Source of the DNA: a virus
Lineage: Duplodnaviria > Heunggongvirae > Uroviricota > Caudoviricetes
DNA: 64,000 nt
IMG/VR virus record: IMGVR_UViG_3300032007_000013
Reading direction: 5' to 3' (one strand)
The translations under genes and the position numbers were made by a program. This document shows positions 23,057 through 36,636 of the stretch, in pieces (position 1 is the stretch's first letter; each line of letters starts with the position of its first letter). The notes under the pieces were generated by a model. The model did no database searches. It saw only the letters and a list, made by a program, of their open reading frames with translations, and was not told where the DNA came from.

Positions 23057-23104
23057 GTGATAAACGAAAATTTTATACTACATTTAGTGGAGGAATATAT
23101 AGAT

Positions 23105-25390
23105 ATGGTTATTAAACGTGATAACTCAAAAGTTGCCTTTGATGGCAAGAAAATTATAGATGCTATTAATAAAGCATTTATTGAAGTAGATGGTCAGTTA
23201 TATGAAAATGATACTGCTACTGATATTGCCATTGAAATAGGTAAAAAATATATTAATGATGATGTTGATGTTGAAACAATTCAAAATGAAGTAGAAGATT
23301 ATTTAATGCGATCAGAACGCAAAGATGTAGCCCGTGCTTATATTCGTTATAGATATAAAAAAGAAGTAGCTCGAAAAGTTAAAGATGATTTTATTGCTCC
23401 TATCAAGGATAAACTTGAAGCAGCTAATGTATAGAATCAAAACGCTAATGTCGATGAACATTCATTCGGTGGCCGCATGGGTGAAGCTGCTAGCTATATG
23501 ACTAAAAAATATGCTCTTGATTATCTTATTTCTGATATGGCAAGATATAATCATTTAAATAATAGAATTTATATCCATGATTTAGACCATTATGCTCTTG
23601 GTGACCATAATTGTTTAAGTGTACCATTTGATGAATTATTAGCAAATGGTTTCAATACTCGTCAATCTGATGTACGTCCTGCTGGGTCTGTAAATACAGC
23701 TTGCCAATTAGTAGCTGTTATTTTCCAACTTCAATCATTACAATAGTTCGGCGGAGTAAGTGCTACACATATTGACTGGACAATGGTTCCATATATTCGT
23801 AAAAGTTTTACTAAACATATTGAAGATGGATTAGTTTATATAGAACATTTATCTTAGTATAAATAGAAACGTTTTACTAAATGGTTAAAAAATGATCCAG
23901 AACATCCAGATGGAACTATCCACTTTGATGATGCTGATTTTTAGAAGAAGCATCCAGAAGTATTTGAATATGCTATGGATATGACTGAAAAAGAAGTTCA
24001 TCAAGCTGTCGAAGGTCTTTATCATAATTTAAATACATTACAAAGTCGTTCTGGTAATCAATTGCCATTTACTTCTATTAATTATGGTACTTGCACTTTA
24101 CCAGAAGGAAGAATGTTTACTCGTGCTTTACTAGAAGTTAGTATTGAAGGACTTGGAAAATTACATAAAACTTCTATTTTTCCATGCGGTATTTTTTAGT
24201 GTATGAATGGCGTTAATCGTAAATATGGTGATCCAAATTATGATTTATACATTTTAGCATTAGAAAGTACTTCTAAACGTCTTTATCCAAATTATGCTAA
24301 TGTAGATTGGTCTGGTAATGCTGGATATGATAAAAATGATCCAACTACTTATTTCAGCACCATGGGATGTAGAACTGTCAATGGAGCTGATATTAATGCA
24401 GAACCAGGCGTAAATCCTCAACGCAAAGATGGCCGTGGTAATATTTGTCCAGTAACAATTATTATGCCGACTTTGGCTATGGAGGCATGGGAAAAGTTGG
24501 ATAATTAGCCATGGGAAACCGATGGAGATGGTACTCAATATAAAGGCGGAAATGTAGTAGATACTTTTATGGAATTATTAGATAAAGCAATTTTTGATGC
24601 CAGAGACATGCTTTTAGAGCGTTTTGAGTGGATTTGTTCACAAGACCCATCTAGTGCTAAGTTTATGTATGAAAATAATACCATGAGTGGTTATCATCCA
24701 AGAGAAGGAATTATTAGTGCCCTTAAGCATGGTACATTAGTTATTGGACAGCTTGGTTTGGCTGAAACTCTTCAAATTCTTATCCATCAAGATCATACAA
24801 CTGCTACTGGTATGGAAGTTGCTAAACGTATTGAACAATTATTTAAAGATAGATGTGCTCAATTCAAACAAGAAGAGCATTTAAATTTTGGTGTTTATTA
24901 TACTCCTGCGGAGAATCTTTGTTATACAGCTCTTAAAAAATTCCGTGAAAAATATGGGGTTATTAAAAATATTAGCGATAAGGATTTCTTTACAAATTCT
25001 ATTCATGTACCTGTTTGGAAAAATATGAGTCCATTCGATAAAATTGATATTGAAAGTCAATTAACTGGATATAGTAATGCTGGATGCATTACTTATGTAG
25101 AATTAGATGCTTCTGTTGTTCATAATATTGAAGCATTAGAATAGATTGTTAATTATGCTATGGATCATGATATCCCATATTTTGCTATTAATGTTCCTTC
25201 TGATACTTGTTTAGATTGTGGTTTTTAGGGAGAAATAAATGATAAGTGTCCTATGTGTGGAAGTACTCATATTCAACAATTGCGTCGTGTAACTGGTTAT
25301 TTAACTGGTAATTATAAAACTGCTTTTAATCTTGGCAAACAAGATGAAGTCCATTATCGAGTAAAACATGTTGGAGAAATGACACAATGA
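23105..25390 (+). CDS. nrdD: Anaerobic ribonucleoside-triphosphate reductase with ATP cone (761 aa)
   Basis: VIKRD ATP cone, YIHDLD, QSLQQFGG, TLQSRSGNQLPFTSINYG, TMGCRT, TPAENL, FFTNS, CLDCG..CPMCG, RRVTGYL glycyl-radical motif. Confidence 0.96.
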
Positions 25391-25866
25391 AATATGCAGG
25401 GATAATTAAAAATGATGTTGCTGCTGGGAAAGGCGTTTGCGTTACATTCTTTGTTCAAGGATGTGACGCACATTGCCCTGGATGCCATAATCCAGAAACC
25501 TGGGATTTTGATGGTGGATATGAATTTACACAAGACACAATTAATTCAATTATTAATGCTTTAAATGCTAATGGAGTTTAGCGTAATTTATGTATTATGG
25601 GTGGAGAACCATTACATGAACGTAATTAGTTTTTAGTATAGTTATTAATACAAGAAGTAAAAAAAGTATATCCAGATATAAAGATATATTTATGGACAGG
25701 ATACCTTTATGAAGATTTAATTGAAAAACACGAAAAAATATTGTAGAATATATTATAGGAAATAGATGTATTAATTGATGGACCTTTTATTAAAGAATAG
25801 AGAGATATTACTCTTGCTATGAGAGGTTCTAGGAATCAACGAATTATAAATTTAAAGGAAAAATAA
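25387..25866 (+). CDS. nrdG: Anaerobic RNR activating radical SAM protein (159 aa)
   Basis: FVQGCDAHCPGCHNPETWDF, MGGEP, LIDGPF, RGSRNQR; directly follows nrdD. Confidence 0.95.
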
Positions 25867-27263: not shown

Positions 27264-27778
27264 TGAATATATATTTAGCTGGACCAATCTTCTTTTATGG
27301 AGATTATTTAAGAAATATTGAATGGGCTAATAAAATTAGATAGGCATTTCCAGATGCCTATCTATATAGTCCAGTAGAGAATACAGATATAAATGGTGTA
27401 GAGGGCAAGAAAAAATTCGCCGGCTCACAAGAAATCGCCAATGGAGATAATATTCGTCTTGATAATACTGATGTATTGATTGCCTGTATTGATGGTGATG
27501 TGCTTCCTTCTGGTACTTGTGCTGAAATTGGCAAGTTTCATGAAAAAATTATGCGTGGCGATAATAAATATATTATTGGTATTTGTACCGATACTCGTCA
27601 ATGTTATAATACTCATAGTGAAGCAAAAGATGCTGGTGGGGCTGCTAGTTTAGGAGAGCAACAATATAGTTATCAAAATCTTTATGTTACAGGTTTAATT
27701 AAGCAAGCTGGAACATTAGTTTATACTATCGACGAAGTTATTGATGTTTTAAAAAAGGTTGCTGATAAATATGAATAA
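27263..27778 (+). CDS. Nucleoside 2-deoxyribosyltransferase / nucleotide N-glycosidase family protein (171 aa)
   Basis: MNIYLAGPIF...YSPVEN...DNIRLDNTDVLIACIDG...SGTCAEIG...YQNLYVTG. Confidence 0.8.
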
Positions 27779-28574
27779 ATGTTTTGACGTTCCATTTAAT
27801 TTTGATGAATCTTTTATTTACGCAATTGAAAATATAAGATTCTAGAAGTATAAAATTAATTCTTATTATATTTATCCTTTTTCAGAAGACTATGAAATGA
27901 CAGATTTAACTAGTACAATTACAATGCCTTCAACAAGAGAAGAATATGAGCATTGGCTAATTGAATATTTTAAAGCTAATGTTGATTTAAATTTATTTAA
28001 AATGCAATTAATATTAGAAAATCCTAATACAGTTATGGACAAGAATACATTAAAATATTATTTAAATTTTGGTTTTTCTCAATTTAGTTGTTCTAGTATT
28101 GAACAAGCTCAAATTATTAAAGAAGTATATCCAGAAGCTGAAATTATTGGATCTATATTTATGAATATTTCTTCTGAAAAGTTAGAACAACATCCTGAAT
28201 ATCAAGATTATTTTAATAAATTTGTTTTACCTTTTTCTTATAATAGAAATATAGATGCTATTAAATTATTACCAGATACTTATGAATATATTATTATACC
28301 GAATGCTAATCTTCAAATAAATGATAATTTAACTAAAGAAAATTTTACTTCATTACAAGATTTAAGCTAGTTAGTAAATAAAGAAACATATTTAAATTCA
28401 GCAAAAATAAGACCAGTTGATATAATGTATTTTAGTAAATATGTTCATTAGTTTAGATTATAGCATCCTGACTGGACAACTACTTGGATTTTATAGGAGC
28501 TAATTGGTTATTCATATTTATATGAAAATTATCCTAATATAGAATATAATAAAGCGATATATGGAGAGACATAA
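27771..28574 (+). CDS. U32-family-like protein, Cys-degenerate paralog (267 aa)
   Basis: Aligns by eye with 35806-36636 (FD.P(F/Y)NFD, Q.....S..QA..IKE..P..EI.GSI.M, FVL.F.YNRNI) but lacks its Cys cluster. Confidence 0.6.
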
Positions 28575-28579
28575 TATAA

Positions 28580-29839
28580 ATGATTAATAAAAATATTGAT
28601 TATAAAGAAGATTATTTATATCCGGTAAATATTCATTTAAATCTTACTGATGACTGTAATTTACGTTGTAAATATTGTTTTGTTCATCATAAGCCTAATT
28701 ATATGCCACTAGAAGTTGCTTTAAAAGCTGTAGATTGGCTTTATGAAAATTATCTTTATCATAAAGAACATAATACTTTGTTAACATATACAAATAATGG
28801 AAAATGTAATATTTAGTTTTTTGGTGGAGAACCAATGTTGTGCTATGAAAGTGTCATTAAACCAGTTGTAAAATATTGTAATGAAAAATATCCTTTTGCT
28901 TTTCATTATGGTATTACAACTAATGGAACTTTATTGAATAAAGAGAGAATAGATTTTTTAAAAGAAAATAATTTTTCTATTCTATATTCAATTGATGGGC
29001 CTCCAGAAGTATAGAATTATAGTAGACCTTGTAAAGATCCTAATATAAAAAGTTTTGATTTAATGGCTAAAAATTTACCATATTTATTAAAGTAGTTTCC
29101 ATATTTGCCTTTCAGACAAACAATAAATATTGATACTGTAGATCATTTATATGATGGATATAAATATGCTGAATAGCTTGGATTTAAATATTGGGTATAC
29201 GTTATAGATAAAATTCACCCACAAGGTTGGACAGATGAGAAAAAAGAAATTCTAAGAGACCAAATTAACCACATATATTACCATAGAATTATTTAGTTAT
29301 AGAATAATGTTTTACCTATGCAAACTCCTAGAATGGATTTAAGTTTATGGAATGTAATATAGACTTTATTGGCCGCGGCAGATGAAACAGGAGAGTATGA
29401 GAGTTCTTTAACTCCAAGGATATGCGGAGTTGGATTAATGGCAGAATCTGTTGCTCATAATGGAGATATCTTTACATGCCAAGAATAGGTTACTTGGGAT
29501 AATAATAATATTTTTAAAGTAGGAAATATCTTTGAAAATAAAATTGAAATATAGAAATAGAAGAATATTTTTGAAAGATTTATTAAAGAATTAAAAGAGA
29601 TAGATTTAAGTGGTAATAAGTAGTGCCAAAATTGCCCACTTAGATTATTTTGTGAAGGTAGTGTTTATTGTCCATCAACGTCTTATATGTTGCATGGAAA
29701 ATTAGCTTATCCACCAGAAGATATAGATTGTTTTGAAAAATAGGTTCATTATCAAAATATTATGCTTATGCTATAGTTATTATTAGGTTAGGATAATGAA
29801 GCTATACATAAATTTTTAACAAATTAGTAGATATTTTAA
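28580..29839 (+). CDS. Radical SAM/SPASM peptide maturase-like protein 1 (419 aa)
   Basis: CNLRCKYC, FFGGEP, TTNGTLL, SIDGP; SPASM CGVG...GDIFTCQE...CQNCPLRLFCEGSVYCP; about 16 TAG=Q by manual count. Confidence 0.9.
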
Positions 29840-29868: not shown

Positions 29869-30369
29869 ATGGCAACTTTTTGTAGTAGTAATCAATTAGC
29901 TATAAATTATATTAGTTCTAGCGATACTAATGTTTAGTCTTTGATTACAAAAATTAAAAATGGAACTGCTTTAGTAAGTGCCGGTACCGCAGCCGATGAT
30001 GCTTTATATAATCGTTTAATTACAATTTTAAATTTAATATATAATTATGGAAAATATGGTACTAGAACGAATAATCCTGGTTCAATTCCCGCCACAGTTA
30101 GTGCTGGTACTACTATGAGTTATACTAAATATAATCAAATGTTAGCTTCTTTAAGTACTCCTTCTGGAACTAATACTAGCAGAACTGGTTCTAATATTAG
30201 TGCTGGAACGGCAATGACAGCTACTCAAATTAATAACCTAGGAAGTTATTTAAAAGCTTATAAATTTTATAAAAATAGATGTAATAGTTGTAATACTGCC
30301 CAAGGATGTGGAGATAGTGGTGGTGGCGGTTATGATTCTTGCTATGGTGGTACTGGCGGCCGTTGTTAA
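29869..30369 (+). CDS. Long-leader Cys/Gly-rich precursor-like protein 1 (166 aa)
   Basis: T/S/G/A-rich body; C-terminal core RCNSCNTAQGCGDSGGGGYDSCYGGTGGRC*; GAAAGGAG RBS; directly after rSAM1. Confidence 0.75.
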
Positions 30370-30371
30370 TT

Positions 30372-31643
30372 ATGATTAATACAATTTGTATAGTGCTAAA
30401 TAGTAAATGTAATTTAAATTGTAAATATTGTTCTGCCAATAAAGATATTGTTACTTTAAATTTTAATCAAATTATTCAGAATGCCTGGAAAGATAATACC
30501 TATTTAAATACTGTTAAATAGGTATTATTTAAATTAAATATTCCATTAACTAATATTACTCATATTTATTTATGGGGCGGTGAACCTTTATTAGATTTAT
30601 CTTATTTTAATTCTTCAATAAGAGATTTATTTCAAATTTTTCCAAATATTAATTCTTTTTGGACTTCTACTAATTTTAATATTAATATAGAAAAATTAAT
30701 TGAATTATTTTAGAATATAGAATTATATGCTAATCAAAATATTAAGTTTGATTTATAGATTTCTATGGATGGCATTTATAATGAAAATGGCCATAATTTA
30801 CCAGTATCTTTATATTAGAAAAATTTAGAATTATTAATTAATAAATTAAATTTATTTAAAATGTCTAAACTGTATTTAAATTTAAATTTTAGATCTACAT
30901 TATTAGAAGAAGATTTTTTAAATAATTTAAATACAGAAGAAAATATAAATAATTATTTTCTTCAATAGAAAGAATTATTGAATTTTGTAAATAATTTAAT
31001 AATAAATGGTCATATAATATTTTCTAATATTTTAATTCCAAGACTTGCTACTCCAAGTTACTCTACTTCAAGTAGTGGCATTGAATTATATAAAAATATT
31101 TAGTTATGGGATAAAATTGCTAATAATTATGAATAGATAATTTTAAATTTACCATTAAAATTTTTTGCTAATAATTATGAATGTCCTAATTATACTTCTA
31201 GTTTAATTATTTTACCAGATGGCGGTATTAGTTATTGTGTTTACAGCTATTTAACAGCTATTGAAAATTATGAAAGAAGTAAAATAGAAAATAGTTATTT
31301 TTTTAATCCATTAATAATGCCAGAAGAAAAATGTAAAAGATAGTACAGTTATTTAGTTAATGGAGTTAAAAATAATATATCTACACATAGAACTATTGCT
31401 TTTAATTTATGTAAAGATTTATTGCATAGTAATCAAATTTCATAGATTTATGAAAATGATGATATATTATTAAAACATTTAATTTTAATGGAAAGTCTTA
31501 CTGATTGTATGTTTAATGCTGTCCATGAAACAACTGTCCCATATGCGAATTCTCCATCTTATTTTAGGAGATATTTTAATGGAATTGCTGAATACATATA
31601 TAATAAAAAAATGTCGTTATTAAAAAAGGAATTATAGTTATGA
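30372..31643 (+). CDS. Radical SAM protein 2, divergent auxiliary-cluster domain (423 aa)
   Basis: CNLNCKYC, LWGGEP, STN, ISMDG; twitch-like CPNYTSSLIILPDGGISYC. Confidence 0.82.
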
Positions 31644-32959
31644 AAACTTATTTAGATGAAGATAATGAAGTATTTAATACTATTTTAGAACAAGAATATT
31701 TTACCGAGTTTAAATTAGGAAATAAAAGTATTGAATTAGAATTATCTGGCTTATGTTCAGCAAATTGCCAATATTGTTATTTAAAAAAATATTAGAAAGA
31801 TTTATTTCCAAAAGAATTATATAATGAAAAAAATATTATTGATAATATAAATTTATTATTACAATGGTATATAAAAAATAATTTTACTTGTAGAATTAGT
31901 TTATTTTCTGGTGAATGGTTAACTACTTCTCTTATGGAACCAGTATTTAATTCTATTTATAATAATTTTAAAGATGCCCAAGAATATTAGAAACCAATTG
32001 ATATTTTAATTCCAGATAATATGAATTTTATACATAGTACAGAACTTACTGATAAAATTTAGTATTATATAGATTTGTTATAGTCTATTCATATTCCAAT
32101 AATAATTAGTGCTAGTATTGATGGAAAGTATTGTGATTTTGGAAGAGTAGAATAGTCAGATGAATTTTATCAAAAATGTTTTGAATTTTGTGATAAAAAT
32201 AATTTTTTCTGTCATCCTATGATTTCTCCATAGAATATAAAGAATTGGAAAGAAAATTATTTATGGTGGCTCACTAATGCCCCACAAAAAATTGTAGAGA
32301 ATTTAGTAATGCTTGAAACAAAAAATGAAAATTGGGATAATGATTCTATTTTAGCTTTATTAGATTTTTGTAATTTTTTAATTGAAAGTAAATTAATAAA
32401 ATATAATAATGATTTATTAAAATTTGCTAATTCAATTTTTTATCCAAAAGGGTATACCATAGAATAGTCAAAAATCCGTTTATATAATTCTAAAAAGTCC
32501 AAAGGTATTACTTGTACAATGTCTAAAGAATTATCTATTCGAGTTGCTGATTTATCTTTAATATTATGTCATAGATTATCTTATGAAGAATTATTACTTG
32601 GTAAATTCATTATAGAAGATAATTAGATTACAAAAATATAGGCTAATAAAAACAAAGTACCTCTTTTATCTATAAAAGCTCATTTTAATAGAAGTTGTGC
32701 CCCATTATGTGAAAAATGTATTTTTGAACCAATATGTCCAGGATTCTGTTGCGGTTTGGCTTATGAGACTTTTAATAATATTTTAGTACCAACGCCAAAC
32801 ATGTGTAATATGTATAAAACAAAATATATTTTTTTAATTAAAAAATATAATGATATGGGCATTTTTGATTTAATAGAAAATAATATTTTTCAATTTAAAT
32901 TAGAAGAAGAAAAACATTATATTCTTAGTTTAAGAGATACTATATTAAATGAGGTATAA
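31640..32959 (+). CDS. Radical SAM/SPASM protein 3 (439 aa)
   Basis: CSANCQYC, LFSGE, SASIDG; CTMS...LCHRL...CAPLCEKCIFEPICPGFCCG...C. Confidence 0.87.
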
Positions 32960-32962
32960 TAT

Positions 32963-33226
32963 ATGGATAATTTATTTTATAAAATGACATTTGAATGTTC
33001 TAATAATTTTTCTATTACTGATGCTTATTATTATTTAGAAAAAATATATAATAATTTACAATATCTAGAAAATGGTTATGAAATTATAGATTACCAAAAA
33101 TTAATTTATATAGATTTTTATTATGGATATGATAATGATATTTAGTTTTATTTAACAAAAATAAAAGAGATTATAGCAAATTTTTGGATAAATGAATAGA
33201 AAATTATTATTAGAGTAAAAAATTAA
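32963..33226 (+). CDS. Small hypothetical protein in the rSAM cluster (87 aa)
   Basis: GAGG RBS; MDNLFYKMTFECSNN...KIIIRVKN*. Confidence 0.6.
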
Positions 33227-33310
33227 AAAAAATATAAATTTTATAAAACTTATATTTTTTTAATTTATATTTATAAATTATTTATAATAAAGATATATAT
33301 GAATAGTAAT

Positions 33311-33340
33311 AGGATAAGTTAATACTTATCCTCTTATTTT
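33311..33340 (+). terminator. Terminator ending rSAM module 1
   Basis: AGGATAAGT-TAAT-ACTTATCCT followed by CTTATTTT. Confidence 0.7.
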
Positions 33341-33368
33341 TGACTTTTGAAAAAAAATATGCTATAAT
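33340..33368 (+). promoter_or_regulatory. Sigma70/SigA promoter for rSAM module 2
   Basis: TTGACT-N17-TATAAT with extended -10 TG. Confidence 0.8.
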
Positions 33369-33415
33369 TTTTTAATAGATAAAAGAAAAATATTTTGAAA
33401 GGATTATATTTTATA

Positions 33416-34711
33416 ATGGAAAGTTTTGTATATGAAGAAAGTTTTTTACATCCTACTAATATATTATTAAATGTTACAGATGCATGTAATTTAAAATGTC
33501 GATACTGTTTTGTTGAATAGCATCCTCATTATATGAATTTTTCAACCGCAAAAACTGCTGTAGATTGGGTAGTATCTAATTATTATTGGAAATTAGAAAG
33601 AAATATAATTAAAGAAGACAAGCATATTACTATTTATTTTTTTGGTGGAGAGCCTACTTTATAGTGGGATATAATTATTCAACCATTATGTAAATATTGC
33701 AAATCACAATATCCTAATTTAATATTTAAATTTGGAATGACTACAAATGGAACGCTCCTTAATGAAGAACGGATTCAATTTTGTAAAGAGTATGATTTTC
33801 ATATATTATTATCTTGCGATGGTGATCAAGTTACATAGAATTATAATAGACCTTGTCATAATGAACAAATAGATAGTTTTAATTTAATAAAACCAAATTT
33901 ATATTTAATTAAAAAATATTTCCCAACAACAACTTTTAGGTCTACAATAATTCCAGAAACAGTACATAATTTATATAATGATTATTGTTTTGCTGAATCA
34001 TTAGGGTTTACTTGGTATTATTCAATGCCAAATTGCCGCTAGCATTGGCCAGAAGACAAAATAAATATTTTAAAAGAACAAATGTAGAAAATTTTTATAA
34101 GAAGAACAAATCAATATATTTTAGGAATTGAGCCTATGCATTTTTCTCTAATAAATGAATTTTATAATTTTATTTTATCTAGAGATATATCATTTGCTAC
34201 AAATGATGATTATTTTATTAATAAAAAGAATCCTTCTAAGAAAGTAAATAGATGTGGTTTAGGAATTAATCAATGTGCAATAGCTTATGATGGAAATATT
34301 TATGGTTGCCAAGAACAACCTAGTCAAGGAAGAAAAAGTTTTTTTTATATTGGTAATTTATTTATAGACCAAGGAATAAATAAAAAAGAACATAATAGGT
34401 TATTAACTGCTTATGTAAATAGACAAAATTTAATTTGTGAAAATAAAATTTTATGTTAGAAAGAGAATTGCCCTTTATGGAACATTTGTTATGTAAAAGA
34501 TTGTCCTTCTACCTCGTATGATTTATTTCAAAATTTAAATACATAGAGTGAAATAAAATGTATATGGAAATCAATTATTTTAAATAATTGTATAACACAA
34601 ATGAAAATTTTAATAGATAAAAATTGTGAATATTTTATTAATTATTTAAATCGTTTACCAAGTTTTATTGAAATTACATAGCAATTAAGGTTAATAGAGC
34701 AATAGGAGTGA
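33416..34711 (+). CDS. Radical SAM/SPASM peptide maturase-like protein 4, paralog of rSAM1 (431 aa)
   Basis: LNVTDACNLKCRYCFVEQHPHYM, FFGGEP, TTNGTLL, SCDG, RCGLG...DGNIYGCQEQ...CPLWNIC...CPSTSY. Confidence 0.9.
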
Positions 34712-34716
34712 AAAAT

Positions 34717-35265
34717 ATGTCAACATAGTATATTCGTAATTTTTATTGTAATACTGATTAGACCCAAAAAGGGAATAGAATTACAAATAATTTAAGTACA
34801 CAAACTCAAAAACATTAGATAATAACTCCAAAAGATTATAATGAAATGATTAATGTACTTAAAAAAGTTCATGATTTTGGAGAAAGTGATACTACTACTA
34901 GAAAACCAAAATTATCTAGTATTACAATTAAAGTTAATGGTATTGATGTTCTTTTAAAGAAAGAATAGTTTGATCTTATTGAACCAGACTTCTATAATAA
35001 TATTTTAATTTCATTAGAATAGACACGTAGAGAAGCTAAGTTTAATATTATCTATGGAAGTTATTTTGATGATTTGTTAGAAAAAGTTAAAAATTATAAA
35101 ATTCCTTCTACAAGATATTATACAACAACTACAACATGTTGTGATTGTTATGGAGATTGTTGTGATAATGATTGTTGCGATAGTGATTCAGGAGGATGTG
35201 CTGATACGGATTATTGTAATTGTATTAGTTGTGATGATTATCATTGTGGTTTTGATTATGTCTAA
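34717..35265 (+). CDS. Long-leader Cys/Asp-rich precursor-like protein 2 (182 aa)
   Basis: C-terminal core CCDCYGDCCDNDCCDSDSGGCADTDYCNCISCDDYHCGFDYV* (12 Cys, 11 Asp in 42 aa); directly after rSAM4. Confidence 0.78.
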
Positions 35266-35294
35266 TATATTATAATAAAGAAAGGTGAAGTTTT

Positions 35295-35819
35295 TTGAAT
35301 ATCGAAGAAATTAAACAAATTTTAAATGCTTATGATAGTACTATTTAGCAAGAAGCTTCAGAAGGATTTAAAACTTTCTATGATATAGAAAATGTATTAA
35401 TATTTATTTTAGATGAATTAGATGATATTGAACATAAAATATCTAATAAAATTATTAAATTAAATGATTATAATTATTTTATTTGCAACGATGAGCGTGG
35501 AGTAGAAGAATTTGATGAAAATTATTTAGTAAAATTTTTATATCAAAATTTTATAAAAGGATAGAATATTATTCTTTATGATGCATTATATAAAACTTAT
35601 TATTATATTAATAGTGTTTATAAAGAAAAAGATGATTATATTATGAATTCATTTTGTGTCCGTTTAGTTTATTATGATAATAAATATAATCAAATGATAA
35701 CTTTTTTTTCATTACGTTATAATGAAAAAGATGATAAAACTTATAAATATACTTATAATATAAATTTACCTATGTTAATAGAAAGAATTAAAAAAGAAAA
35801 AAACGATGAAACCATTTGA
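35295..35819 (+). CDS. Hypothetical protein in the rSAM cluster (174 aa, TTG start)
   Basis: AAGGTGA RBS; open with TAG=Q. Confidence 0.6.
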
Positions 35820-36636
35820 TCTTCCTTATAATTTTGATATTAATTTAATAAATTTTTATGATATTTATTTCAATGAAAATATAAATAGGCAAATACATTC
35901 TATATATTTGCCTCCTTATTTAAACGATTATATTACTGCTAAAAATAATCAAAAAATGCACACTATATATAATACATTAAAAATAAAAAATATTATTCCA
36001 ACTGATGAACAAGAGTATCAAGAACATATTTCATATATCAATAAGTTATTGCCAGATACATTAATGCTATTATTATAGTAGAATGAACTATTAATGCCAT
36101 ATAATATATTAGAAAAATATTTAAAGTTAAATATTAAACAATTTTGCGTTGGATCACTTAATCAAGCTAAAATGATAAAAGAGATAGATCCGAGTATTGA
36201 AATTACTGGTTCTATTACTATGAAAATGATGCCAGATGATTTAATAAAATAGAATAATATTTTAAATCAATATTTTGATAATTTTGTTTTATGGTTCCCA
36301 TATAATAGAAATATTAAAATGATTCAGTAGTTACCACCAAATTTTAATTATATTTTATTACTCAATTGTACTTGTAGCATTAATTGTTAGGGTACTTTTC
36401 ATTGGTTTGCCGCTGAAAATGATATTATAAAATGTCCTGCGGTATAGGAAAAAAATATTTAGAAACAAATGATAATTCCAAGAGATTTCCTTTATTTATT
36501 TAATGATTATATTAATATTTATAAACTTTAGGGACGAGAGTTTCCTACAAAATTAATCATTGAACAAATTATTTATTATAATACAACAACTCCAAAAAGT
36601 TTTTCTTTGTTAAAAGAATCTGATTTTCAAAAATAA
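35806..36636 (+). CDS. U32 family protein with Cys motif (276 aa)
   Basis: TIM-barrel-like pattern, LLNCTCSINCQGTFH...KCP, YKLQGRE (equivalent to the U32 KIEGR motif). Confidence 0.7.

What the first reader, a model, noticed from the sequence alone, without database searches (positions are those of the whole stretch)
34717..35265. Precursor 2 core has four Cys-X3-Asp motifs, the known PapB/freyrasin thioether pattern
Seen: the 42-aa core CCDCYGDCCDNDCCDSDSGGCADTDYCNCISCDDYHCGFDYV has 12 Cys and 11 Asp, with C-X3-D at core positions 8/12, 13/17, 21/25 and 29/33, preceded by a Thr run (YYTTTTT). Established: the rSAM PapB links Cys sulfur to the Asp beta-carbon in CX3D motifs. Inference: rSAM4 makes a multiply crosslinked acidic core. 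A metallothionein-like metal-binding role is the alternative.
Basis: partly seen in the sequence, partly recalled or inferred. Interest (0 to 1): 0.7.

Follow-up and report, generated by a model that had tools for sequence, protein, structure and literature searches.

The report
Phage Cys-rich protein paired with rSAM enzyme
A stop-codon-recoded rumen phage encodes a 182-residue protein with a folded front domain and a cysteine/aspartate-rich tail, placed right after a radical-SAM enzyme that probably cross-links that tail, but the "four Cys-X3-Asp" pattern said to mark known PapB chemistry is no more than chance and is not conserved in relatives.

Summary
The sequence facts hold. With TAG read as Gln, 34717-35265 encodes a 182-aa protein. 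Its last 42 residues have 12 Cys and 11 Asp, with C-X3-D at core positions 8, 13, 21 and 29.

The CX3D count is what that composition gives by chance (expected 2.9, P=0.31). CX3D is absent from 24 of 43 relatives' tails, and Asp at Cys+4 is not enriched family-wide (29 observed, 29.4 expected).

The protein belongs to an uncatalogued family (47 representatives). Members have a conserved, confidently folded ~140-aa N-domain with no recognised fold, and a hypervariable Cys-rich tail that gains and loses short repeats. Precursor 1 in the same cluster is a paralog.

The partner enzyme rSAM4 is nearest to PapB by HMM (154 bits, cutoff 340). It has a full SPASM motif but no RRE, as does its whole clade of several hundred unnamed metagenomic enzymes. 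Enzyme and substrate are adjacent, translationally coupled and co-diverge as a cassette.

Best reading: rSAM4 cross-links the tail's Cys, probably as thioethers, with Asp/Glu plausible acceptors in this subclade only. This is a new variant of rSAM-modified Cys-rich peptides and not a freyrasin-type member. The chemistry is untested.

The parts
33311..33368 (+). Terminator-like hairpin (33311-33332) followed by the best sigma-70-like promoter match (33340-33368) ahead of rSAM4. Marks the start of the second module.
   Evidence: promoter match 11 of 12 with an extended TG; 4 terminator-like sites found against 0.4 expected. Consensus matches only.
33395..34711 (+). rSAM4: 438-aa radical SAM/SPASM enzyme with no N-terminal RRE. 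Probable maturase of the downstream protein.
   Evidence: Pfam Radical_SAM E=1.9e-14. Best NCBIfam match is the PapB family, 154.5 bits against a cutoff of 340. Best solved structure is CteB 5wgg, aligned from CteB residue 99. CX3CX2C at residue 31 and a full 7-Cys SPASM pattern.
34703..34707 (+). AGGAG ribosome-binding site of precursor 2, lying inside the end of rSAM4 (suggesting translational coupling).
   Evidence: Read directly from the sequence. The rSAM4 stop is at 34709-34711 and the ATG at 34717.
34717..35136 (+). Precursor 2 N-domain (residues 1-140): conserved, folded alpha/beta domain with five TAG=Gln codons. Carries the nearly invariant Cys11, HDFGESD..TRKP, IIYGSYF and NYKIPSTRYY motifs. 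The Thr run is part of its last beta-strand.
   Evidence: Alignments. AF2 with 46 sequences: pLDDT 74-94 over most of residues 1-140, pTM 0.67. No structural relative: PDB Foldseek E>=2.4, VIA best Z 4.0, BFVD E>=0.12. No Pfam, NCBIfam or PHROG hit.
35137..35265 (+). Precursor 2 Cys/Asp-rich tail (residues 141-182, plus the stop codon): invariant head CCDC.G.C, two CCDxD repeat units, a variable middle, and a conserved C.CI.SCDD..C end.
   Evidence: Modelled as disordered, pLDDT below 50.
35295..35819 (+). 174-aa ORF of unknown function that travels and diverges together with rSAM4 and precursor 2.
   Evidence: Present in the same position in L002. 53% identity to the L002 copy, while upstream genes are 95-100% identical. 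No family hit.
28580..29839 (+). rSAM1: paralog of rSAM4 (38% identity), PapB-like SPASM enzyme without an RRE.
29869..30369 (+). Precursor 1: a 166-aa paralog from the same family, with a Gly/Ser-rich tail holding 5 Cys and the RCNSCN junction.
   Evidence: Family HMM E=6.9e-19; N-domain-only HMM E=3.4e-15.
30339..32959 (+). rSAM2 (30339-31643; twitch-like, lacks the CX2CX5CX3C cluster) and rSAM3 (31640-32959; SPASM-type Cys cluster). Further radical SAM enzymes of the cluster, roles unknown.
32963..33226 (+). 87-aa ORF of unknown function, 100% identical in L002.
27759..28574 (+). 271-aa ORF, paralog of 35806-36636. It brackets the cluster on the upstream side.
   Evidence: BLASTP 32% identity, E=5e-28. 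No Pfam hit at E<=5 other than one chance-level match.
35806..36636 (+). 276-aa ORF, paralog of 27759-28574. It brackets the cluster on the downstream side.

Best explanation
Precursor 2 is the dedicated protein substrate of the adjacent radical SAM/SPASM enzyme rSAM4, in a cassette carried by a TAG-recoded rumen jumbo phage.

The substrate is not a short leader-plus-core peptide. It is a folded ~140-aa domain whose last beta-strand (RYYTTTTT) leads into a flexible Cys-rich tail.

Inferred steps:
1. rSAM4 has no RRE, so it docks on the folded N-domain.
2. It uses its SAM cluster and two auxiliary clusters to abstract hydrogen from tail residues, and joins Cys sulfur to side-chain or backbone carbons. 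This gives several intramolecular thioether links.
3. The anchor points are the conserved Cys framework (C141, C142, C144, C148, C169, C172).
4. In this Asp-rich subclade, Asp (or Glu in relatives) following a Cys at short, variable spacing is the most plausible acceptor, as in PapB and QhpD. The acceptor set is lineage-specific and changes together with the enzyme. CX3D as such is not the determinant.

Shown: the sequence features, family membership, pairing, co-divergence, and the enzyme's class and motifs.
Inferred: substrate docking, thioether chemistry, acceptor identity and biological role.
For: Pairing:
- An rSAM of this clade directly precedes a family member in the window twice (rSAM1/precursor 1 and rSAM4/precursor 2), in L002, and probably in Phage Phass-1 (weak HMM support).
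- Five further enzyme/precursor pairs share contig lengths of 2-6.5 kb.
- The RBS of precursor 2 lies inside the end of rSAM4.

Co-divergence:
- Window versus L002: rSAM2 95%, rSAM3 97%, ORF87 100%, but rSAM4 59%, precursor 2 71%, ORF174 53%.
- Enzyme and N-domain identities track each other across small-contig pairs: 94/93, 58/53, 52/46, 50/46, 44/40.

Enzyme class:
- Top NCBIfam matches are thioether-forming SPASM maturases: PapB 154 bits, then nif11-type, CcpM, SCIFF and QhpD.
- The closest solved structure is CteB.
- CX3CX2C plus the 7-Cys SPASM pattern are present.

Substrate:
- Conserved domain plus hypervariable Cys-rich tail, which is the usual RiPP logic.
- Cys positions are invariant while other tail residues vary.
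- The acidic fifth position of the CCxx[D/E] units is retained across a D-to-E change.

An RNA-library contig identical to the window spans the whole gene.
Against: - No biochemical data exist for this family or this enzyme clade.
- rSAM4 scores far below every curated cutoff, so its chemistry cannot be transferred by homology.
- No protease, exporter or RRE protein was detected in the cluster, which is unlike most RiPP clusters.
- Tails with almost no Asp or Glu exist (P0016, P0025, P0048), so Asp cannot be the general acceptor.
- The tail could also bind metals or form disulfides.
- Four rSAM enzymes serve two substrates, so assigning rSAM4 to thioether formation rests on adjacency.
- The RNA-library contig may be carried-over DNA.
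Confidence: 0.55

Rival explanations
1. rSAM4 is a PapB-type enzyme that makes four S-C(beta) Cys-to-Asp links, exactly at the four CX3D motifs (8-12, 13-17, 21-25, 29-33), giving a freyrasin-like product.
For: - The PapB family is the best HMM match.
- The four motifs exist and are unchanged in all variants at 90% identity or more.
- When alternatives compete, PapB prefers CX3D over CX0D and CX6D (PMC9413430).
- The CCxx[D/E] units keep an acidic residue at +4 in P0002 and P0004.
Against: - The count equals the chance expectation (P=0.31).
- Sites 8-12, 13-17 and 21-25 are lost in P0003, P0005, P0006 and P0007. Only 29-33 persists, and only to about 45% identity.
- There is no enrichment family-wide.
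- The enzyme lacks PapB's RRE and scores less than half the cutoff.
- With 12 Cys and 11 Asp, many other Cys-Xn-Asp pairings are equally available.
Confidence: 0.1
2. The tail is a metal-binding, Fe-S-binding or disulfide-knotted module (metallothionein-like) that works without radical SAM cross-linking. The neighbouring rSAM enzymes act on something else.
For: - The tails are 23% Cys with CC, CxC and Cx3C patterns enriched in Gly, Ser and Asp.
- Four Cys are nearly invariant across the family, including Cys11 in the N-domain, which could form one metal site.
- Tails change by repeat gain and loss, like low-complexity metal-binding proteins.
Against: - Pairing and co-divergence with a peptide-maturase-type SPASM enzyme are conserved.
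- Translational coupling.
- Aromatic residues are common in the tails (Tyr 6.4%, His 2.2%, Trp 1.3%), which from general knowledge is unusual for classical metallothioneins.
- No metallothionein family was hit.
Confidence: 0.15
3. rSAM4 does modify the tail, but by other radical SAM chemistry. Candidates are alpha-carbon (sactionine) links, aromatic C-C cyclophane links at the conserved C[YH]G motif, Cys-to-formylglycine oxidation, or epimerisation.
For: - Cyclophane-forming (YhhB, XyeB, GrrM), sactipeptide (RumMC) and anSME models also hit, at 40-90 bits.
- The invariant head is CCDC[Y/H]G.C.
- P0006 and P0007 carry up to five x-C-[YH]-G-x-C repeats.
- Family-wide enrichment is for C-N, C-D and C-x-S/T, not for a single acceptor.
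Against: - Thioether-forming families score highest, and the cyclophane hits cover only the N-terminal half of the enzyme.
- The aromatic position is Asp in P0003.
- Cys, the thioether donor, is the only consistently conserved tail residue.
Confidence: 0.2

Closest known systems
Freyrasin system PapA/PapB (ranthipeptide, Paenibacillus polymyxa)
   Same: - Radical SAM/SPASM enzyme next to a Cys- and Asp-rich substrate.
- PapB is the best curated HMM match for rSAM4 and rSAM1.
- Two auxiliary-cluster motifs are present.
- Acidic residues follow Cys in repeated units.
   Different: - The score is 154 bits against a cutoff of 340.
- There is no N-terminal RRE; PapB residues 1-86 form one (PMC12715619).
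- The substrate is a 182-aa protein with a folded 140-aa domain, not a short leader peptide.
- CX3D is neither enriched nor conserved.
- The system is phage-encoded and TAG-recoded.
SCIFF / thermocellin system CteA/CteB (ScfA/ScfB)
   Same: - CteB is the closest solved structure.
- Cys-rich core.
- The family-wide C-x-[S/T]-x-C pattern of the type-B tails resembles the SCIFF core seen.
   Different: - The ScfB model scores 88 bits against a cutoff of 425.
- No member matches any NCBIfam precursor model.
- CteB residues 1-98 (the RRE) have no counterpart.
- The substrate is about four times longer than a SCIFF peptide, and its tail is hypervariable rather than highly conserved.
QhpC/QhpD (quinohemoprotein amine dehydrogenase gamma subunit and its rSAM maturase)
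   Same: - From general knowledge, a SPASM enzyme makes Cys-to-Asp/Glu thioethers inside a protein that stays a protein.
- The QhpD model is among the hits (85-91 bits).
   Different: - The score is far below the cutoff of 453.
- There are no dehydrogenase subunits nearby.
- The tail here is hypervariable.
- The context is a phage.
Long-leader RiPP precursor families (Nif11-type and NHLP-type), and the uncharacterised Cys-repeat systems named in NCBIfam (CXXX-repeat, Cys-every-fifth CefB, CcpM)
   Same: - A conserved N-terminal part with a hypervariable C-terminal core.
- The corresponding rSAM maturase models are hit (nif11-type 109-121 bits, CcpM 98-110, CXXX-repeat 68-83, CefB 66).
- Short Cys-containing repeat units vary in copy number.
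   Different: - All scores are below cutoff.
- The N-domain is about twice as long as those leaders (general knowledge), is confidently folded, and has no recognised fold.
- It has no sequence match to any Pfam or NCBIfam leader family.

Membership tests
PapB family ranthipeptide maturase (NCBIfam NF047865), tested on rSAM4 | Whole-protein score at or above the curated equivalog cutoff (340 bits) | tested here: not met
   154.5 bits for rSAM4 and 146.2 for rSAM1. It is the best hit, but at less than half the cutoff.
PapB family ranthipeptide maturase (NCBIfam NF047865), tested on rSAM4 | N-terminal RiPP recognition element (PapB residues 1-86, PMC12715619) | tested here: not met
   CX3CX2C starts at residue 31. 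The alignment to CteB starts at CteB residue 99. All 120 closest homologs have the motif at residues 17-36. No stand-alone PqqD/RRE-like ORF was detected in the cluster.
PapB family ranthipeptide maturase (NCBIfam NF047865), tested on rSAM4 | Radical SAM CX3CX2C motif plus a SPASM domain with Cys ligands for two auxiliary clusters | tested here: met
   Cys 31/35/38, plus 287/305 (CX12GX4C type), 348-370 and 389. Tested at motif level only.
PapB family ranthipeptide maturase (NCBIfam NF047865), tested on rSAM4 | Arg372-equivalent residue needed for activity (PMC9413430) | not tested
Freyrasin-type precursor (PapA-like) | [quoted passage not shown] | tested here: not met
   Four are present, but that equals chance (P=0.31). 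Three of the four are lost in homologs at 45-55% identity. 24 of 43 family tails have none, and pooled z is -0.1. A CCxx[D/E] unit is kept only in the nearest subclade.
Freyrasin-type precursor (PapA-like) | Short precursor with a linear leader peptide | tested here: not met
   182 aa, with residues 1-145 predicted as a folded alpha/beta domain (pLDDT mostly 74-94).
Ranthipeptide / sactipeptide class (rSAM-made thioether RiPPs) | Cys-rich substrate gene adjacent to a radical SAM/SPASM maturase gene | tested here: met
   Found in the window twice, in L002 and in Phass-1. Shared small contigs add further pairs.
Ranthipeptide / sactipeptide class (rSAM-made thioether RiPPs) | Cys sulfur-to-carbon thioether links in the mature product | not testable with these tools
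   Needs mass spectrometry or NMR of the modified protein.
SCIFF system (ScfA TIGR03973 / ScfB TIGR03974) | Precursor and maturase reach the curated model cutoffs | tested here: not met
   No NCBIfam precursor model is hit by any of 46 members. The ScfB model scores 87.8 bits against a cutoff of 425.
Metallothionein-like metal-binding protein | Match to a metallothionein family, and metal binding | tested here: inconclusive
   No Pfam hit even at E<=5, but metallothioneins are diverse and short. Metal binding cannot be tested here.

The most novel reading that the evidence does not exclude
This is a widespread, undescribed class of phage-borne protein-scale RiPP-like systems.

A folded carrier domain with no recognised fold presents a hypervariable Cys-rich tail to a co-evolving RRE-less radical SAM/SPASM enzyme. 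The enzyme/substrate/ORF174 cassette is swapped or diversified between otherwise near-identical jumbo phages, which suggests it acts in phage-host or phage-phage conflict.

Recognition would go through a folded substrate domain instead of a leader/RRE pair, and the cross-link chemistry may differ between lineages.
Probability: 0.35. Interest if true: 0.8.

Novelty: new variant of a known kind. Interest (0 to 1): 0.6.

Why it matters
If the pairing works as inferred, it adds three things:

- **A substrate-recognition mode for radical SAM peptide maturases.** The substrate has a folded domain and the enzyme has no RRE.
- **A large pool of natural enzyme/substrate pairs.** There are several hundred unnamed enzyme clusters and dozens of tail designs, which could be mined for new thioether or other cross-link chemistry.
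- **Multi-enzyme RiPP-like machinery in recoded jumbo phages of the rumen and gut.** Standard gene calling hides it. In Phage Phass-1, for example, the substrate ORF is unannotated and the enzyme is annotated as two CDS at the TAG.

For the specific claim, the lesson is cautionary. In a peptide that is 55% Cys plus Asp, a CX3D count carries no information, and conservation has to be checked before known chemistry is assigned.

Tried and rejected
**Searches that found nothing**
- The search for related loci in viral contigs with precursor 2, the family alignment and rSAM4 found no relatives.
- Degenerate-DNA scans for the junction motifs gave only chance matches: L003 is an RNA-virus polyprotein, and L004-L008 hold no family member under any code.
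- tblastn of both precursors against 50,697 phage records found no match.

**Leads rejected**
- The gut-virome contigs that matched rSAM4 (MT83xxxx) are ordinary SCIFF/ScfB loci, not this family.
- The first AF2 model, from 8 sequences, was unusable at pLDDT 37.
- Fold searches of the good model found nothing significant. This does not show that the fold is new.
- No RRE, protease, transporter or U32 signal was found in the accessory ORFs.

**Tools unavailable**
- No whole genome is held for this window.
Co-location is inferred only from equal contig lengths.
- The primary PapB and ranthipeptide papers (PMC7362900, PMC6622460) are not held. PapB's features are taken from PMC9413430, PMC12373016 and PMC12715619.

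**Limits of the read evidence**
- The X3 RNA-library contig is only a weak hint of transcription.
- Parts of the stretch without cover in X3 or X4 mean nothing.

Full report
**1. The observation**

The window is 28% G+C and is TAG-recoded. Reading TAG as sense raises coverage by ORFs of at least 100 aa from 0.49 to 1.07 of the window's length, and the longest ORF to 2438 aa. Under table 11 the stated interval breaks into pieces at five in-frame TAGs. With TAG=Gln it is one ORF of 182 aa starting at the ATG at 34717.

An AGGAG lies at 34703-34707, inside the last codons of the upstream gene, whose stop is at 34709-34711. All full-length homologs begin MST/MSV.

The core has no TAG, so it does not depend on the code chosen.

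**2. Is the CX3D pattern more than chance?**

It is not. In 20,000 shuffles of the 42 residues the mean number of CX3D is 2.9, and P(>=4) is 0.31. C-X0-D, C-X1-D, C-X2-D and C-X5-D occur 4-5 times each. What is non-random is the composition, not the spacing.

**3. Relatives**

A word-indexed search found seven homologs at 42-91% identity. A profile search of 1.84 billion representatives found 47 proteins at E<=1e-3, of which 20 are at E<=1e-10. None carries a name. None matches Pfam, NCBIfam or PHROGs.

All have the same plan: a conserved N-terminal part of about 130-140 residues, followed by a hypervariable Cys-rich tail. The conserved motifs are a nearly invariant Cys near residue 11, YN..I..LK.I..[YF]G, TR.P, YN.I and G.YF..L....NYK. 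Two junction types occur:
- P.TRYY....CC.C, the precursor-2 type.
- RCN.CN..C, which is what precursor 1 of this window has.

A family HMM built locally scores precursor 1 at E=6.9e-19, and at 3.4e-15 with the N-domain alone. So the two "precursors" of the cluster are paralogs.

**4. Conservation of the motif**

In the eight-sequence alignment the invariant tail positions are C141, C142, D143, C144, G146, C148, C169 and C172. None is a CX3D acceptor. The sites fare as follows:
- Sites 8-12, 13-17 and 21-25 survive only in the closest relatives (P0001, P0002).
- In P0003, P0005, P0006 and P0007 the Asp is replaced or the segment is absent.
- Site 29-33, inside C.CI.SCDD, persists down to about 45% identity and is then lost.

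Across the 43 tails with a recognisable junction, 24 have no CX3D, and Asp content ranges from 0 to 11. Pooled over 42 tails and compared with within-tail shuffles, Asp at Cys+4 is 29 observed against 29.4 expected (z=-0.1). The real signals are C-N (+9.9, largely from the RCN.CN junction), C-D (+5.0), C-x-S/T (+4.3/+5.1) and C-x3-C (+3.7).

In the nearest subclade the middle of the tail is a 5-residue repeat:
- Window: CCDND CCDSD.
- P0002: CCDHD CCDSD CCDSD.
- P0004: CCVSQ CCVSE CCVSE CCVYS.

The fifth position is acidic in 7 of 9 units, although the third-position Asp is lost in P0004. Unit number changes even among proteins at 90% identity or more: CCVSE is present twice in P0004 and once in P0059/P0061 (four CCxxx units against three). 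A (CD)n run likewise changes length in the P0033 cluster. Within the window's own 90% cluster, all Cys and the four acceptor Asp are unchanged, while core positions 11, 19, 31, 35, 40 and 41 vary.

**5. The N-terminal part is a domain, not a leader**

With the 46-sequence alignment, AlphaFold2 gives mean pLDDT 73.8 and pTM 0.67. Residues 1-145 are confident (blocks at 71-94). The elements are strand 2-9, helix 38-53, a hairpin at 70-79, helices 90-99 and 114-125, and a final strand 133-141 that contains the Thr run. The tail, 146-182, is below pLDDT 50.

No significant structural relative was found: PDB Foldseek E>=2.4, VIA-align over 48,161 chains best Z 4.0, BFVD best E 0.12. This does not prove a new fold, but none was recognised.

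**6. The enzyme**

rSAM4 (33395-34711, 438 aa) has a Radical_SAM domain. Its best NCBIfam matches, with their cutoffs, are:

| Model | Bits | Cutoff |
|---|---|---|
| PapB family | 154.5 | 340 |
| nif11-type maturase | 108.9 | 518.7 |
| CcpM | 98.3 | 500 |
| SCIFF maturase (ScfB) | 87.8 | 425 |
| QhpD | 84.9 | 453 |

All are below cutoff, so this is class-level similarity only.

The closest solved structure is CteB (5wgg). The alignment starts at CteB residue 99, so the RRE has no counterpart. CX3CX2C sits at residue 31 and a full 7-Cys SPASM pattern is present. rSAM1 (38% identical) and the Phass-1 enzyme have the same build.

The enzyme clade is large and unnamed: 530 clusters at E<=1e-10, and the 120 best listed are mostly about 400-430 aa. 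All 120 have CX3CX2C at residues 17-36, so the whole clade lacks a fused RRE.

From the literature:
- PapB has an RRE at residues 1-86 (PMC12715619).
- It makes six links at CX3D/E motifs, to the Asp beta- or Glu gamma-carbon.
- It tolerates n=0-6 in vitro but prefers CX3D when alternatives compete.
- It needs Arg372 (PMC9413430; PMC12373016).

**7. Pairing and co-divergence**

A clade enzyme directly precedes a family protein in four places:
- Twice in the window.
- In metagenome contig L002.
- In Phage Phass-1, a human-gut "code 15 clade" phage. There the 174-aa ORF at L001 10153-10677 is unannotated. It is only a weak family hit (E=3.8e-5 for the full HMM, 1.1e-3 for the N-domain), but it is the only other hit among 508 ORFs.

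For the 2082-bp contig it implies adjacency.

Between the window and L002 the identities are:

| Protein | Identity |
|---|---|
| rSAM2 | 95% |
| rSAM3 | 97% |
| ORF87 | 100% |
| rSAM4 | 59% |
| precursor 2 | 71% |
| ORF174 | 53% |

The break coincides with a terminator-like hairpin and the best promoter-like site at 33311-33368. Across the small-contig pairs, enzyme and N-domain identities to the window fall together: 94/93, 58/53, 52/46, 50/46, 44/40. The second module therefore behaves as an exchanged or fast-evolving cassette.

**8. Habitat and expression**

The stretch occurs in bovine and sheep gut metagenomes from many studies. A family member whose last 75 residues are identical to the window's lies on a 241-kb contig, which is consistent with a jumbo phage.

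A contig from a bovine metatranscriptomic library covers 34487-35355 with no differences. That spans the whole gene, but DNA carry-over is not excluded.

**9. Interpretation**

The best-supported reading is an enzyme/substrate cassette. An RRE-less SPASM enzyme recognises a folded substrate domain and cross-links the Cys of its flexible tail, most likely as thioethers.

In this Asp-rich subclade Asp/Glu are plausible acceptors, and the CCxx[D/E] units are the best candidates. The acceptor set is lineage-specific and is not defined by CX3D.

The rivals are the strict PapB/four-CX3D model, a metal or disulfide module without cross-linking, and other radical SAM chemistry such as cyclophane formation at the conserved C[YH]G. 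Nothing here tests the chemistry.

**10. Novelty**

The kind of system, an rSAM/SPASM enzyme acting on a Cys-rich ribosomal substrate, is known. What I found no description of, in the libraries and papers searched, is the following combination:
- This substrate family, with its folded carrier domain.
- The RRE-less enzyme clade.
- The cassette behaviour.
- The setting in TAG-recoded rumen and gut phages.

I rate it a new variant of a known kind. The specific claim of a known PapB/freyrasin pattern is overstated.

Noticed in passing
window 33227-35819 versus L002 2744-5304: There is a sharp break in divergence between two otherwise near-identical phages. Genes upstream of about 33300 are 95-100% identical at protein level. 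rSAM4, precursor 2 and ORF174 are only 53-71% identical. This looks like a swapped or fast-evolving cassette that starts at a terminator/promoter pair.
   Followed up: partly
L001 10153-10677 (OQ749652.1 about 67828-68352, minus strand): Phage Phass-1 has an unannotated 174-aa ORF right after its PapB-like rSAM, with a Cys-rich tail (CNTCNVGCDIQCRTCITCNSCKDRSC). The rSAM itself is annotated as two CDS (WIC39641.1 and WIC39640.1) that flank an in-frame TAG. A second rSAM (L001 7941-8972) lies upstream.
   Followed up: partly
P0006 and P0007 (family members from metagenomes): Their tails consist of up to five hexapeptide repeats x-C-[YH]-G-x-C and hold almost no Asp. The aromatic-Gly-x unit recalls the motifs used by three-residue cyclophane-forming rSAM enzymes, which is a lead for alternative chemistry.
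   Followed up: no
window 34747-34749 (Cys11 of precursor 2) and the equivalent column in all family members: A Cys near the N-terminus ([FY]C in precursor-2-type members, Q[TS]FC in type B) is nearly invariant across the family. In the model it lies two residues after beta-strand 2-9. The other terminal strand (133-141) leads into the tail.
   Followed up: no
window 27759-28574 and 35806-36636: The two ORFs that bracket the cluster are paralogs (32% identity, E=5e-28). Neither gives a Peptidase_U32 or any other meaningful Pfam hit, even at E<=5.
   Followed up: partly
window 30339-31643 (rSAM2): rSAM2 has CX3CX2C and a CX12GX4C pair but lacks the CX2CX5CX3C cluster. It looks twitch-like, with one auxiliary cluster at most, rather than SPASM.
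   Followed up: no
L009-L012 (MT837264.1, MT836452.1, MT835472.1, MT836133.1): Records deposited as 'Bacteriophage sp.' from human faecal viromes carry ordinary SCIFF peptide plus ScfB maturase loci at 41-49% G+C. They may be bacterial DNA in the virome, or prophage-borne SCIFF systems.
   Followed up: no
BFVD entry A0A8S5UTL8 (rank 35): A 200-aa protein of 'Myoviridae sp. ctYA416' is named 'Six-cysteine peptide SCIFF' in UniProt. It is a weak structural match (E 4.1, TM 0.22). It may be a family member whose tail triggered a SCIFF annotation.
   Followed up: no
window 23057-25866: Anaerobic ribonucleotide reductase NrdD and its activase NrdG lie just upstream of the cluster, and the Phass-1 locus has the same pair near its rSAM genes. 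The phage thus carries several oxygen-sensitive radical enzymes, which fits an anaerobic host.
   Followed up: no
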